From: Eledone cirrhosa
Lineage: Eukaryota
NCBI GenBank assembly: GCA_964016885.1
Contig: OZ024748.1
Span: 5,084,001-5,148,000 of the forward strand
DNA: 64,000 nt
Direction: 5' to 3'
In this document: in pieces, positions 1,991-60,160 of the stretch
How the letters are laid out: the number at the start of each line of letters is the position of its first letter
Position numbering within the stretch: position 1 is the stretch's first letter
The notes under the pieces: generated by a model
What the model was told of the DNA's origin: nothing
Seen by the model: the letters and a program-made list of their open reading frames with translations, nothing else
Database searches by the model: none
Position numbers and translations under genes: made by a program

Positions 1991-2397
1991 AGGTGCTCCT
2001 GTTTTCGCAATTTAGTCTCTGATAGAAGTGGGAAGAGTATTTAAAGTCTTCGGCTCCTTGTCTTAAATTTATAGATGTTAGTGTATATATATGTCTGGTA
2101 ATGCGGTCAATACGAGGCTGTTGCATTTGATGTTGTTGTTCTTGTTGACGATATTATTTATCACCTGGTTAAACCTGTTCAATATATATATATATATATA
2201 TATATATATATATATATATATAGAAGTAGTTCCACAACAGTTAGTTCACCATACCGATAACGAATGTTTCACTTTATTCGGATCCTCAGCTCGGTCTACC
2301 AAACTCGTCCCATGGATCGAGTGCTCTGCTACTACAGATATAACCCATCAGGGTTCTACTATTACATATATATATATATATATATATATATATATAT

Positions 2398-2610
2398 AGG
2401 TAAGTTATTCCGGGTTGAATCGGAGGTAACTACAGTAAGTAAGGTACTCAATACATAGCAGAGTATAACAGTTTTAATATAGATGAGATTCTACAGGACT
2501 AGAACTGTTTCATTCTTTAGAAATCATCAGAAATCTCAGATCTGAGATTCCTGATGATTTCTAAAGGATGAAACAGTTCTAGTCCTGTAGAATCTCATCT
2601 ATATTAAAAC
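2398..2610. mobile_element. Hammerhead fold-back element, family A (140-bp palindrome 2471-2610 plus 3' tail)
   Basis: Near-perfect palindrome centred at 2540/2541 with a unique tail at 2398-2470; flanked by (TA)n. Confidence 0.85.
2543..2597 (+). ncRNA. Type I hammerhead ribozyme (family A); mirror copy on minus 2484-2538
   Basis: Stem I TGAGATTC/GAATCTCA; CTGATGA; stem II TTC-TAAA-GGA; GAAA; stem III ACAG-ttctagtc-CTGT; predicted cleavage after GTA (2589). Confidence 0.85.
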
Positions 2611-3819
2611 TATATATATATATATAAGAAACCAAATAAATATATATATTTTTTTAAAAATAAGACTCCAGTTGCATTTTCGATTTCATCTTTTTTCACT
2701 CGTGTAGGACACCTCAGTTATTTTTCATTTTGTAAAAAAACCTCACTTTCTAATATATATATATATATATATATATATATATATGTGTGTGTGTGTGTGT
2801 GTGCGTGTGTGTATAAAGAGAGAGGGAGAGAGAGAGAGAGAGAGAGAGAGAGAGAGATGAGAGAGAGAGAGAGAGAGAGAGAGAGAGAGAGAGAGGGGGG
2901 AGGCTAGATAGTTAGATAGATAGCTAGATAGTTAGATAGATAGATAGATAGAATATTTTTAACAAAGTTTTTACAATTTTGAACTGAGCTCCCGGACACT
3001 GTGCTTCCTCTACGTTAGGATCTAGCTGTGAAATATATGAAGTATCTACAAATATACAAATGACAATTAGGGTTTTGTATCTTGAGATATTCCCATACAA
3101 CCATCACAAGCGGTTATATAGATTTTATGAATTGCTGCTGAACAATATCATAAAAATAATTGAATCTACAACCACCCACTTCTGGTTTGTAAAGCCCCTT
3201 AAAGATTAACTTCTCCCCACCACTGGAAGTCACTCTCCTTGAAATAATGATATCTCCCACAGGTCCAGAGTCACTATCCCTGATATAATGAAACCATTAG
3301 TAACAATGTTTATAGTCATACACAGCTATCGATCATCTCTCCACTCCCAAACACACACACACACACACACACACACATACACACAGATAATCATAAAGAC
3401 ACACGAAGGCCCCTCGTTATAAAGCCTATTACATGATATTATATCATGATATATATACACATACATACAAACACACACATATATATATATATATATATAT
3501 ATATATATATATATATATATATATATATATATTTATATATATATATATATATATATATATATATATATATAATTCTGATAACTCTGATTTTGCGTTTCGT
3601 TTCGCTTTTTCTACCCGCCGAAATGCGATTCTCGCTGAATTTATATATATATACATATATATATATATATATATATATATATATATATATATATATATAT
3701 ATACACATATATGATATATATATATATATATATATACACACATATATATATATATATATATATATATATATATATATATATATATATATATATATATATA
3801 TATATATATATATATATAT

Positions 3820-4111
3820 AAAGAAAAAAAGATGAAATCGAAAATTCAACTGGAGTCTTATTTTTAAAATATATATATATATTTATTTGGTTCCTTTACC
3901 GGTTTCGCAGTTCTTCTGCTTTTCAAAAGTACTCTACTTTTGAAAAGCAGAAGAACTGCGAAACCGGTAAAGGAACCAAATAAATATATAAATATTTTTT
4001 AAAAATAAGACTCCAGTTGCATTTTCGATTTCATCTTTTTTTCTTTATACTTTCACTCGTGTAGGACACCTCGGTTATTTTTCATTTTGTAAAAAAAACC
4101 TCACTTCCTAA
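3820..4111. mobile_element. Hammerhead fold-back element, family E (arms ~3820-3931 / 3935-4046); tail-only copy at 2626-2752
   Basis: Inverted repeat centred on agta-ctc-tact, with a 3' tail ending in (TA)n. Confidence 0.85.
3937..3972 (+). ncRNA. Minimal type I hammerhead, U3-A8 core variant (mirror on minus 3894-3929)
   Basis: CTT-TTGAAAA-GCAG-aagaa-CTGC-GAAA-CCGGTA-AAG; palindromic ACCGGT stem III. Confidence 0.7.
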
Positions 4112-5500
4112 TATATATATATATATATATATATATACATATATATATATATATATATATATTATATTATAGCATATATATATATATAATATGAATATAT
4201 ATAAATATATATATGTATATCATATATATACAATATGACTATACATATATATATATATATATATCATAAATATAATATGAATATACATAAATATATATAT
4301 ATATCATATATTTATAATATGAATATATATATATATATATATATATATATATATATATATATATATATATATATATATATATATATATATATATATATAT
4401 ATATATACATACACATATAATATATCATATGAATATATATAGATATATAAATATATATACACTATCATGTGTGTTTGAGCTTGTATGGATTAACTTACCT
4501 TTAGTAATGAGCATGTTTTGTATTTACATATATAATGTTATGTTATCGCTGATAGAATCTAATTCTAATTAAAGAAGAGTTAAAGAATTATAGTCTGAAA
4601 TACACACGATTATTCCTTATAATTTTCCTCACACACACACACACACTACAGCATACACGTACGTATATATATAAGTGTTAATAATGCAGATACGCACACA
4701 ATTGTGCATACAAACATACAGTTCACAATATATATATATATATATATATATATATATATATATATATATATATATATAATATCATGTGTGTGTTTGTTTG
4801 TGCGTGTGTGGTTTATATATATATATATATTTATTCAATACAATCTGTTATATATATATGTACATACAGTCATTTATATAGGAATATACGGAAACTTTGA
4901 GATGTCATGGCAACATTTTTTGCATTTTGTTAGGATATATGCATATTTGTATGTGTGTGTGTATATATATATATATATATATATATATATATATATATAT
5001 ATATATATATATATATATATATATATATATATATATATATGTATATGTATATATATATATATATATATATATATATATATATATGTATGTATATATATAT
5101 ATATATTTGTATATATGTATATACAGATATATATATGTGTGTGTGTGTGTGTGAGAGAGAGAGAGAGGGAGAGAGAGAGAGAGAGAGAGAGAGAGAGAGA
5201 GAGAGAGAGAGAGAGAGAGAGAGAGAGAGAGAGAGAGAGAGAGAGAGAGAGAGAGAGAGAATATGCACACATACATATATACATATGAGTGCTATATACC
5301 AACAAGTAGCTTGGGGAGCAACAGTAATAGGTTCTTGTATGAAATATGATACATAACATATGTAAAGAAAATCTAGAAACTTAAAGTCGGCTGGAAATAA
5401 AAATTTGGATGAATATTTATTATAGGATCAACGAACTCTGTTGTAGCCATTTATTTTAGTTTAAACTATATTATATTATATTATATTATATATACATTAG

Positions 5501-58500: not shown

Positions 58501-59727
58501 TTATGTTTTGTGTTTATAACTGAAAATCATATTACCTAATTTCATTATATCATTTCTTTGACAGCTTAAATATTATATATATATATATATATATATATAT
58601 ATATATATATATATATATATATATATATATATATATATATATAGAGAGAGAGAGAGAGAGAGAGAGATTGTGAGAGAGAGAGAGAGGATAGTGAGAGAGA
58701 GATTGTGAGAGAGAGATTGTGTGAGAGAGAGAGAGAGAGAGAGAGATATACGATCAACGGATGGACTTCTATTTGCTTCAAAGTTGTGTGTTGAAAACTA
58801 TTCATTCCCAGTGAATGTGTAAGTGGCTGAGTATTCCTAAGACAACTGTAATCTCAGGAGTATCCAAACGTAGCATAGTGTGTGGAATGATTAGCGATTC
58901 GAATTAGTGTTAAAATCCATCAGACGAGCTTCAAAATAGTTTCCGTCTATCAATTTCACTCATATGGCATGGGACAAACAAACGTTATGGTAAATGACAC
59001 TGACTCAAAATGACGCTGGCCTCAAACATGGAACCTAATGATTGTGAAATGAACAACATAACCATGTCTCCATACAGTCTGTCTGTGTGTGTGTGCGTGC
59101 GTGTGTAAGTATATGAGTGTGTGTAAGTATATGGGTGTATGCAAGTTTGTGTATATATAAACTCACATATATATGTGTGTGCGTGTGTGTGTAAGTATAT
59201 GGGTGAGTGTGAATTTGTGTATACATAAACTCATATATATATATATGTGTGTATGTGTGTGTATGCACGCGCGCGTGTGAGTGTAAGTATATGAGTGTGT
59301 TTGAGTTTGTGTATACATACACTCACACATATATATGTATTTACACACACACACATACACACACATATATGCTTATATATATGTCTGTGTTGTGTGTTGT
59401 GTATGTGTTTCCGTGCACGTTAAAATAGCTAAATTCTCAATTCTAATTTATTACCTCTATCGAGTTTGAGGCCAATATATTTATTACCATTTTATTATTA
59501 ACGATTTCAAGCATACCTAATTGATCTAATCGGCTGTAACCATCACCTGTGGTGATCGTTATAGCCAATTAGATCGAAGACTAAACTGAACCGATACTTA
59601 TTTCAGTGACATCGGAAAAAAGAATCAGAACTATATATATATACATATATATATATATATATATATATATATATATATATATATATATATATATATATAT
59701 ATATATCGGTACGCAATCGGTACAGTA

Positions 59728-59910
59728 TATGGAAGGAATATATTAGGTTAACGCTTGAAATAGGAATAGGGCCTTAACGTTTCGAACGCTAGTCCTTCAT
59801 CAGAAGAAAGAATGAGAAATTAGAAAGATTGAAGGGACAGGCGGGGCGTGGAATTGGAAAAAGTGTGTTTAGAGAAAAATAACAGGTCCATTCATGTTGC
59901 CACCTATCTT
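59728..59910 (-). mobile_element. Family C2 element with minimal hammerhead (59772-59807)
   Basis: Minus: TCTT-CTGATGA-A-GGAC-tagc-GTTC-GAAACGTT-AAGG; homologous to 12965-13125. Confidence 0.75.
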
Positions 59911-59967
59911 ATATATATATATATATATATATATATATATATATATATATATATATATATATATATA

Positions 59968-60160
59968 CATCATGTTTAATATAGAAATCGCTTCTACGGA
60001 CTGCAACTGTTTCATTCAAAAGAAAGCATTAGGAAACCCCTTTTCTTTTGAACGAATAAGTTCTAGTCCTATAGAAGCCATTTCTATATTAAACATGATG
60101 TTTACACTCTACTAATGTATTTAATGTTGTTACTCCTGATTGAATCCGAGACTACCCCAC
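59968..60160. mobile_element. Degenerate family A fold-back element
   Basis: Imperfect inverted repeat catcatgtttaatatagaaat...atttctatattaaacatgatg with decayed hammerhead halves. Confidence 0.6.

What the first reader, a model, noticed from the sequence alone, without database searches (positions are those of the whole stretch)
2222..60160. Swarm of about 10 families of hammerhead-ribozyme mini-elements that target (TA)n and form asymmetric fold-backs
Seen: more than 20 short non-coding inserts in (TA)n tracts. They fall into sequence-distinct families (A 2398/23749/39319/59968; B 7706/11866/14110/45623; C 8665/12965/18148/39810/59728; D 16918/43855; E 3820; F 9776/29092/31190; G 40230/51795; H 47051; J 2222/14776). 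Most have a CUGANGA..stem II..GAAA..stem III..NUH hammerhead; D and G show only partial or degenerate cores. Many copies share one architecture: (TA)n, short inverted arm, turn, hammerhead reading outward, unique 3' tail, (TA)n. Established: Penelope-like elements carry minimal type I hammerheads in their terminal repeats, often leave 5'-truncated inverted copies, and some target microsatellites; non-autonomous hammerhead retrozymes also exist. Inference: this is a dense, multi-family, TA-targeted PLE/retrozyme system whose products are 100-450 bp ribozyme hairpins. I am not aware of a description of it at this density in a cephalopod Hox locus, but cannot search to confirm novelty.
Basis: partly seen in the sequence, partly recalled or inferred. 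Interest (0 to 1): 0.85.

Follow-up and report, generated by a model that had tools for sequence, protein, structure and literature searches.

The report
Penelope leader hairpins in TA repeats
These short ribozyme-bearing hairpins are fragments of ordinary Penelope-type jumping genes whose full-length parents lie elsewhere in the genome; their two arms nearly always end at two different fixed points, which likely means that both ends of a cut TA repeat each start copying the element's RNA, and many copies likely stop at that RNA's capped front end.

Summary
The inserts are real: 32 insertions of 11 families lie in the window, 11 as head-to-head pairs. They are not a new class of ribozyme element. 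Ten families trace to same-strand RT/GIY-YIG Penelope-like (PLE) genes; F traces to a 2-kb non-coding unit. Density follows TA content (32/399 tracts, against 45/575 elsewhere), so it is not Hox-specific. The inverted copy with a one-sided tail is published PLE anatomy. What the copies add is mechanism. (1) 111 of 118 unselected pairs have one proximal and one distal end (59 expected), and 20 have non-overlapping arms, which favours two-ended priming over snap-back. The scan noted this before on other DNA of this genome. (2) In families A, D, E and H, inner ends pile up 30-33 nt below a TATA-like box and carry an extra G (21/24 against 49/232). That suggests copies of the capped transcript leader, but it is confounded in A and E and was not seen in six other families. 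(3) Only 8 of 273 arms start at the ribozyme cut. Cleavage and transcription are untested.

The parts
2222..2365 (.). Family J pair: proximal-ended hammerhead arm on - (core 2289) joined to a tail-only distal arm on +; arms do not overlap
   Evidence: GIY-YIG upstream of J at L432 and L270
2399..2611 (.). Family A pair: distal arm on - (2399-2536), proximal arm on + (2545-2611); both start at the proposed +1; cores 2530- and 2551+
   Evidence: parents are 5.4-5.5-kb tandem units with RT and GIY-YIG (L427, L428)
2626..2751 (+). Family E single arm starting just after the cleavage site
3820..4110 (.). Family E pair; U3-A8 hammerhead cores at 3926- and 3940+
   Evidence: GIY-YIG parent L232/L350
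7706..8147 (.). Family B pair: distal arm on -, proximal arm on +; cores 7892- and 8039+
   Evidence: parent L337 with RT and EN on the same strand
8366..8430 (+).
8525..8850 (+). Family Ca single arm, 99% identical to many copies; core 8732; no fold-back
   Evidence: parent L351 with RT motifs and GIY-YIG
9776..9920 (-). Family F single proximal arm; core 9874
   Evidence: parent is a 2.0-kb non-coding unit
11847..12037 (+). Family B single proximal arm starting at the B hot spot; core 11929
12924..13140 (-). Family Cb single arm; core 13043
   Evidence: parent EN at L333/L353/L354
14110..14477 (.). Older B-related pair with an inner gap; core 14369+
14776..14843 (+). Family J single proximal arm; core 14780
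16918..17061 (.). Family D pair: proximal arm on -, tail-only distal arm on +
   Evidence: parents L340, L341, L343
17160..18075 (+). Family N: 5'-truncated copy of a young intact PLE; GIY-YIG C-terminus 17159-17551, hammerhead core 17837, proximal end at 18075
   Evidence: intact 1216-codon frame in a 4145-bp tandem unit; relatives carry RT annotation
18148..18350 (-). Older Ca-related single arm
23749..23866 (.). Family A pair: proximal arm with hammerhead on -, tail-only distal arm on +
29092..29184 (+). Family F single arm; core 29109
31192..31537 (.). Family F pair: short proximal arm on -, distal arm on +; core 31290
39320..39552 (.). A-related arm on - (core 39453) abutting a Cb fragment on +
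39810..40027 (+). Older Ca-related single arm
40225..40340 (+). G-related single arm lacking the 5' half of the core
43856..44019 (.). Family D pair; both arms start inside hammerhead loop II at or near the proposed +1
45640..45845 (-). B-related arm; core 45772
47056..47447 (.). Family H pair, both arms starting near the proposed +1; U3-A8/A13C core at 47202-
   Evidence: parent L439 with degraded ORF and GIY-YIG
51790..52278 (.). Family G pair; the distal arm is split by a SINE-like fragment (52073-52176) with a 12-bp duplication
   Evidence: parent is a 4416-bp tandem unit, L344
59711..59905 (-). Family Cb single arm; core 59803
59968..60160 (.). Older A-related pair

Best explanation
The inserts are short, often mirrored pieces of the terminal repeats of about eleven Penelope-like retrotransposon families, likely made when the element's enzyme cuts a TA repeat and each DNA end primes reverse transcription at one of two fixed sites on the element's RNA. 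Shown: parents, two fixed 3' end sites per family, one of each per mirrored pair, TA flanks, unique inner joints. Inferred: the two cDNAs are joined at their 3' ends by end-joining, which yields the asymmetric hairpin with a tail on one side. Inferred, less firmly: the priming sites lie only 60-210 nt below the promoter in the terminal repeat, so priming near the 5' end of a capped transcript copies just the leader up to the cap; this would explain the 80-450-bp size class in A, D, E and H. The hammerhead rides along because it lies in this stretch; the templates were mostly uncut.
For: Parents with RT and/or GIY-YIG on the same strand for A, B, Ca, Cb, D, E, G, H, J and N; tandem units of 4.1-5.5 kb for N, G, Ca and A. 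3' ends are bimodal in nine families. Of 135 pairs not selected by their own family query, 111 are proximal+distal, 5 proximal+proximal, 3 distal+distal and 16 have an unclassed end; on 118 classed pairs 59 were expected, p 1.6e-25; 11 of 11 in random stretches. In 20 of the 111 the distal arm is tail-only, and in 13 more it is shorter than a proximal arm that holds the whole core, so neither arm can be a copy of the other. The single-site families Ca and Cb have an inverted partner in 0 of 30 and 1 of 30 loci, against about half or more in A, B, D, E, F, G, H and J. Inner ends: 58/94 A, 84/166 D, 19/39 E and 8/18 H arms start within -6..+10 of an A lying 30-33 nt below a TATA-like box. An untemplated G precedes that A in 28/33 arms, and in 21/24 against 49/232 after removing cases explained by the partner arm. 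Only 8 of 273 distal-ended arms start at the cleavage site and 206 span it. Fits PMC11167929: the enzyme cleaves and extends both strands, uses two internal start sites, and does not need the ribozyme in vitro.
Against: Most overlapping pairs copy the same RNA stretch twice, which needs strand displacement or two RNA molecules; neither was tested. In A and E, a one-base snap-back onto a nearby inverted repeat would give the same G. The cases free of that confound are few: 4 of 5 in D once two subfamily rows likely explained by the partner arm are set aside, and 2 in H that sit in GA repeats. B gave G in only 2 of 7 at its hot spot. F, G, J, Cb and an extra family O showed no clear TATA/G hot spot, and an attempt to test new families blind had too few copies. 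The A and E start sites were proposed after seeing some junctions, so the G test was not blind. PMC11167929 found no homology between primer and RNA, whereas these ends mostly sit at short TA matches. The end bins were drawn from the same data. No RNA data, no cleavage assay and no RT tree.
Confidence: 0.72

Rival explanations
1. Same parents and two-ended priming, but short copies are ordinary early stops of cDNAs begun at the 3' repeat; RNA or cDNA hairpins, not the cap, set the hot spots and supply the extra G.
For: A and E have an inverted repeat that can template the G, and one E junction follows it for 5 nt. Six families lack a clear promoter-linked hot spot. Many arms stop downstream of the hot spot.
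Against: The 30-33-nt TATA spacing recurs in four references. D has the G without such a repeat. The G is rare at neighbouring positions, e.g. A 0/3 and 1/5, E 0/8 and 1/6, D 1/12 and 2/7.
Confidence: 0.3
2. The hairpins form by self-priming (snap-back) of one strand, perhaps on an antisense template, as proposed for rotifer Penelope in PMC3846280.
For: Some turns sit on natural palindromes or ribozyme helices; arms resemble each other (median 0.94) more than the family reference (0.89) over 75 pairs; 23 of 109 exact joints overlap by 2 nt or more.
Against: 20 of 111 pairs have non-overlapping arms and 13 more have a proximal arm reaching further 5' than the distal arm. It does not explain why the second arm ends at a fixed family site, nor why single-site families lack inversions.
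Confidence: 0.12
3. The hairpins are self-propagating non-autonomous ribozyme elements (retrozyme-like), cut out by the hammerhead and copied as units.
For: Helices covary. Nine of eleven helix III segments are predicted to pair with a second copy. F is non-coding.
Against: 110 of 111 junctions are distinct and 8 of 273 arms start at the cut. D copies lack half the core. No short tandem units were seen in these families. The covariation is explained by selection on the parents.
Confidence: 0.06
4. They are MITEs (DNA-transposon derivatives).
For: Inverted arms and TA flanks.
Against: The arms are of unequal length with variable inner ends and run on into RT/GIY-YIG genes in longer copies.
Confidence: 0.01

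Closest known systems
Insertions of endonuclease-bearing Penelope-like elements with an inverted 5'-truncated copy and a one-sided tail (PMC8557442 passages and sections 10-11; PMC3846280 passages)
   Same: Head-to-head layout, tail on one side, partial tandems, hammerhead in the pLTR, microsatellite targets; TATA and Inr-like motifs in a pLTR were noted in rotifers, and a start site within the pLTR in Penelope and Chlamys-3.
   Different: Tails here are about 20-145 nt rather than 30-40. The one-proximal/one-distal rule is counted (111/118). Inner ends cluster at a predicted start site with an extra G. The papers leave the mechanism open or propose self-priming.
Anolis Poseidon element in vitro (PMC11167929, parts 1-2 of 4 read)
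   Same: Both strands cut and extended, two internal RT start sites delimiting the tail, uncut RNA used as template.
   Different: That work does not pair the two sites to the two DNA ends in the parts read; it reports no primer-template homology and an ATT target, whereas here ends sit in (TA)n at short TA matches.
Minimal hammerheads of metazoan PLEs (PMC4209133, parts 1-2 of 4 read; PMC3088659 passages)
   Same: Dispersed minimal type I motifs, opposite-strand pairs 100-700 bp apart, palindromic helix III, U3-A8 variant; U4C and a U-U pair at the base of helix II are known variants.
   Different: G combines U4C with A6U (21 of 31 sequences) and H has A13C; neither was seen in the passages read (figures and supplements not seen). 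D has a stable 5-bp helix III but a predicted start site inside loop II.
Hydra clade of PLEs (PMC8557442 section 11)
   Same: Parents of A, B, D, G and J have the CxCX5C linker; A, B and D show CxxC and CxH around E and N; all target (TA)n.
   Different: The A and G units are 4.4-5.5 kb, not under 3 kb; no tree was built.
L1 twin priming and cap-derived 5' G (PMC4859970 passages)
   Same: Two primers on one transcript give an inversion; an untemplated G marks copying to the cap.
   Different: L1 arms do not overlap and the second site is not fixed (recalled); here both sites are fixed and the arms usually overlap.
Animal non-LTR retrozymes (10.64898/2026.07.22.740005, part 1 of 5 read)
   Same: Non-coding, type I hammerhead, PLE-related; the 2-kb unit of F comes closest.
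   Different: The window elements are not tandem arrays of a short unit and do not start at the cleavage site.

Membership tests
Endonuclease-bearing Penelope-like elements | Single ORF with RT and C-terminal GIY-YIG endonuclease | tested here: met
   N has an intact 1216-codon frame. Its best relative is labelled RT-domain protein (69%), and some relatives carry PF00078/PF26215; Pfam itself found nothing on N. GIY-YIG is above cut-off for the E and H parents. Same-strand RT/EN fragments for A, B, Ca, Cb, D, G and J. None for F.
Endonuclease-bearing Penelope-like elements | Partial tandems forming pseudo-LTRs | tested here: met
   Units of 4145 (N), 4416 (G), 4705 (Ca) and 5422/5512 bp (A); 2011 bp for F.
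Endonuclease-bearing Penelope-like elements | Inverted 5'-truncated copy and one-sided tail | tested here: met
   rare in Ca and Cb.
Endonuclease-bearing Penelope-like elements | Type I hammerhead motif in the pLTR | tested here: met
   All 11 references hold a canonical or variant core; helix I is only 2 bp in Ca and N.
Endonuclease-bearing Penelope-like elements | RT groups with PLE clades in a tree | not tested
Hydra clade (A, B, D, G, J) | CxCX5C linker; CxxC and CxH flanking E and N | tested here: met
   Linker seen for A, B and J, D and G; C-terminal motifs for A, B and D.
Hydra clade (A, B, D, G, J) | Generally shorter than 3 kb | tested here: not met
   A 5.4-5.5 kb and G 4.4 kb, owing to long 3' UTRs.
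Hydra clade (A, B, D, G, J) | RWK and DKT motifs; tree position | not tested
   N-terminal frames degraded or not examined.
Neptune/Nematis type (Ca, Cb, E, H, N) | CX2-5CxxC linker | tested here: inconclusive
   Present in N and Ca, partial in H, not resolved for Cb and E; the motif does not separate the clades.
Non-LTR retrozymes | Tandem short units each with a hammerhead; copies bounded by the cleavage site | tested here: not met
   8 of 273 arms start at the cut and 110 of 111 junctions are distinct; only F has a non-coding tandem unit, of 2 kb.
Hammerhead ribozyme (activity) | Self-cleavage as monomer or dimer | not testable with these tools
   Folding only: helix III probability 0.87 for D and 0.04 or less for the other ten; a second copy can supply it for nine.
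MITEs | Equal terminal inverted repeats, fixed size, no RT link | tested here: not met

The most novel reading that the evidence does not exclude
A PLE enzyme pair binds two hairpin-marked sites in the leader of its own capped transcript and primes one from each end of a cut (TA)n tract. Each promoter-derived RNA can therefore be copied either as a long element or as a tiny leader hairpin running to the cap. Some hundreds of thousands of TA-flanked inserts in this genome would then be a direct map of PLE start sites and priming sites, would show a sense, capped, uncut template, and would settle how the inverted pLTR and one-sided tail arise.
Probability: 0.45. Interest if true: 0.75.

Novelty: new variant of a known kind. 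Interest (0 to 1): 0.55.

Why it matters
How Penelope-like elements, the closest relatives of telomerase, make their inverted repeats and one-sided tails is stated as open in PMC8557442 and PMC3846280. These copies give sharp predictions for an existing in vitro system: one start site per DNA end, a sense capped template, and no need for ribozyme cleavage. An intact, 99-100% identical family (N) is at hand. In practice such hairpins are easy to mislabel as MITEs or microRNA precursors; the 11 families alone extrapolate roughly to 3 x 10^5 insertions (45 in 400 kb).

Tried and rejected
Rfam: no hammerhead among the 150 rows shown, only hairpin and microsatellite matches below the gathering score. 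The strict hammerhead descriptor found 0 in the window and was too tight. Pfam found nothing on the N frame, the window EN piece or the Hox-like exon. PDB sequence searches found nothing relevant. Run search: no RNA holder listed. Contigs of two runs laid on 2100-4200 covered the A and E stretches in both, but no piece spanned a whole insertion, so they neither confirm nor question the window's junctions. In one search the helix coordinates for B, D, F, J and Ca were off; those rows were redone. The apparent N hot spot at 555-559 and B hot spot at 324 are homology limits of related subfamilies and were dropped; N arms ending before position 420 of the reference were dropped as TA artefacts before the pair count. 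The blind test of the promoter idea on further families failed for lack of copies, and one seed flooded the output with TA matches. Hox-specific enrichment was rejected. A>G excess was not seen in six older window copies.
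Full report
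Setting. The window is G000:C8:5084001-5148000 in a 3.0-Gb genome. It is 30% GC, with 16% of its bases in (TA)n against 4.3% in random stretches. A minus-strand frame at 33621-35006 ends in a YPWM motif; that this is a Hox first exon, probably Scr-like, is recalled, and Pfam gave nothing. The best named relative of a window-linked protein is from Octopus vulgaris at 69% identity.

Observation. With one real genomic copy per family as reference, 32 insertions of 11 families map in the window, and 11 of them are head-to-head pairs. A relaxed hammerhead descriptor finds 9 motifs against 0.225 on average in 40 shuffles. It misses the variant and mismatched motifs, and a stricter version found none. 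All 11 references hold a type I motif. Covariation: A helix I has 21 and 14 double changes at two pairs in 111 sequences; B helix II has 27, 30 and 40 in 86; E against H has 23 and 29 in 78; G has 4 in 31. D and F showed none. These counts are of sequences, not events. Cores: canonical in A, B, Ca, Cb, F, J and N; U3-A8 in D, E and H; A13C in H; U4C with A6U in 21 of 31 G sequences. U3-A8 is published for PLEs (PMC4209133); U4C and the U-U pair at the base of helix II seen in A are known variants (PMC3088659, passages).

Parents. Own-genome searches gave 976-3974 first-look candidates per family, and 55 for E; these are lower bounds, not copy numbers. The stretch 17160-18075 ends a PLE whose other copies are 99-100% identical and form 4145-bp tandem units with an intact 1216-codon frame. 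Same-strand RT and/or GIY-YIG sequence lies upstream of A (two tandem units), B, Ca, Cb, D, E and G (two or more loci each), H (an ORF end 1.2 kb upstream in L189 and a degraded full ORF in L439) and J (L432, L270). F lies in a 2011-bp unit, seen at two loci, with no match to the PLE protein set. A, B, D, G and J have the Hydra-clade linker; N and Ca have a CX2-5CxxC linker; no tree was built. An ACTC..GAGT stem begins 5-13 nt after the proximal end in A, B, D, G, J and F but not in E, H or N; 51 of 10,000 random windows have one. This ties F to the Hydra-type group and agrees with earlier scan notes e1-8804728 and e1-9568615, which gave the lead.

Targets and density. Among arms not selected by their own family query, 190 of 237 proximal and 167 of 309 distal ends abut a TA run of 10 nt or more, against 3.1% of 20,000 random positions; distal ends are under-counted because references were trimmed. 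The window has 32 insertions for 399 TA tracts, 40 evenly spaced 10-kb stretches have 45 for 575, and the four neighbouring stretches have 19 for 192. The window is dense because it is TA-rich. Whether the tracts pre-exist or grow after insertion was not tested.

Two ends, one of each. 3' ends fall at two sites about 20-145 nt apart in nine families and at one site in Ca and Cb. Of 135 unselected head-to-head pairs, 111 have one proximal and one distal end, 5 two proximal, 3 two distal, and 16 an unclassed end. Leaving out the one Cb pair, 111 of 118 compares with 59 expected (p 1.6e-25); the random stretches gave 11 of 11. One 'two proximal' case, G at 51790, is a proximal-distal pair split by a later insertion. 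In 20 pairs the distal arm is tail only, and in 13 more it is shorter than a proximal arm holding the whole core, so one arm cannot be a copy of the other. Ca and Cb have an inverted partner in 0 of 30 and 1 of 30 loci. Joints show overlap of 2 nt or more in 23, are blunt or nearly so in 25, and carry insertions in 61 of 109; 110 of 111 are distinct. I infer that each cut DNA end primes its own cDNA and that the two are then joined. This fits the in vitro behaviour of the Anolis element (PMC11167929) and argues against the self-priming proposal of PMC3846280. Overlapping arms need strand displacement or a second RNA; that is unresolved. The scan reached the same two-start reading earlier on other DNA of this genome; I saw those notes, and they are not independent evidence.

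Why so short. Inner ends cluster: 58 of 94 A, 84 of 166 D, 19 of 39 E and 8 of 18 H arms start within -6..+10 of an A in an initiator-like context, 33, 31, 30 and 31 nt below a TATA-like box (the consensus motifs are recalled). Arms whose match starts exactly at that A have a G before it in 28 of 33, against 72 of 384 elsewhere. After removing 9 and 205 cases explained by the partner arm, the counts are 21 of 24 against 49 of 232 (p 1.3e-10). An untemplated G is the accepted mark of copying to the cap in L1 and SVA (PMC4859970). Against this: A and E have an inverted repeat able to template that G; the unconfounded cases are few; B gave 2 of 7; F, G, J, Cb and O show no such peak; and the sites for A and E were chosen after seeing junctions. 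I put this step at about 55%. If it holds, D's start lies inside loop II, so a whole D ribozyme forms only in read-through RNA, which explains the 'partial' D cores.

Role of the ribozyme. Only 8 of 273 distal-ended arms start within 3 nt of the cleavage site and 206 span it, so the templates were mostly uncut. Folding predicts a stable helix III only for D; nine families can form it with a second copy, as described for minimal PLE hammerheads. Activity is untested.

What is known. The layout, tail, microsatellite bias and non-autonomous PLEs are in PMC8557442 (passages, sections 10 and 11) and PMC3846280 (passages). Dispersed and opposite-strand minimal hammerheads are in PMC4209133 (parts 1-2 of 4). 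A start site within the pLTR is in PMC2377424 (passages). PMC13282606 lists 31 recently active PLE families in O. vulgaris and has no occurrence of 'hammerhead' in its main text (passages). Searches listed no paper whose title or opening states the one-of-each pairing, cap-ended leader copies, or cephalopod PLE hammerheads. The library lacks most subscription papers, and no supplements or figures were seen, so the A6U and A13C variants and the pairing may be shown there.

Verdict. The value lies in the mechanistic read-out. New variant of a known kind, interest 0.55.

Noticed in passing
L427, L428 (family A units): The A element carries a 3.1-kb 3' UTR that is one third (TA)n tracts and 87% identical between two units, so this PLE spreads the microsatellite it targets.
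   Followed up: partly
L347, L348 (family F): A 2011-bp non-coding tandem unit with a hammerhead and PLE-type ends; probably a non-autonomous PLE larger than described retrozymes.
   Followed up: partly
window 5503-5687, 9150-9336, 11410-11608, 41031-41217, 52739-52927, 54700-54891, 62810-62999 and others: A roughly 190-bp SINE-like family, the commonest repeat in the window; one fragment splits the G insertion at 52073-52176 with a 12-bp duplication.
   Followed up: partly
window 5700-6050, 44046-44195, 44745-44935, 455-547: Further TA-flanked families, the first three with hammerhead cores (5868-, 44140-, 44877-), not traced to parents; more such families appear in fetched DNA.
   Followed up: partly
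family B reference position 324; window about 7938 (-) and 11889 (+): A splice-donor-like motif conserved across B subfamilies lies about 43 nt below the B hot spot, close to the 46-nt spacing of the Penelope 5' intron in PMC2377424.
   Followed up: no
L439:360-430: A full-length H arm stops at its inner end exactly at the proximal site of the upstream repeat, with a templated duplication in the joint; a single case.
   Followed up: no
L021:5761-9408: The intact N frame has an asparagine-rich stretch of about 160 residues before the RT, recalling the N-rich inserts of rotifer Penelope in PMC3846280, which lie elsewhere in the ORF.
   Followed up: no
window 1-133 and 63890-64000: Two more long fold-backs at the window edges; the first has weak similarity to B.
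   Followed up: no
window 33621-35006 (-): A 461-codon low-complexity frame ending in a YPWM motif, likely a Hox first exon (recalled); no homeobox exon was found in the window.
   Followed up: partly
window 60913-61408: A tandem array of 34-38-bp units, unrelated to the finding.
   Followed up: no
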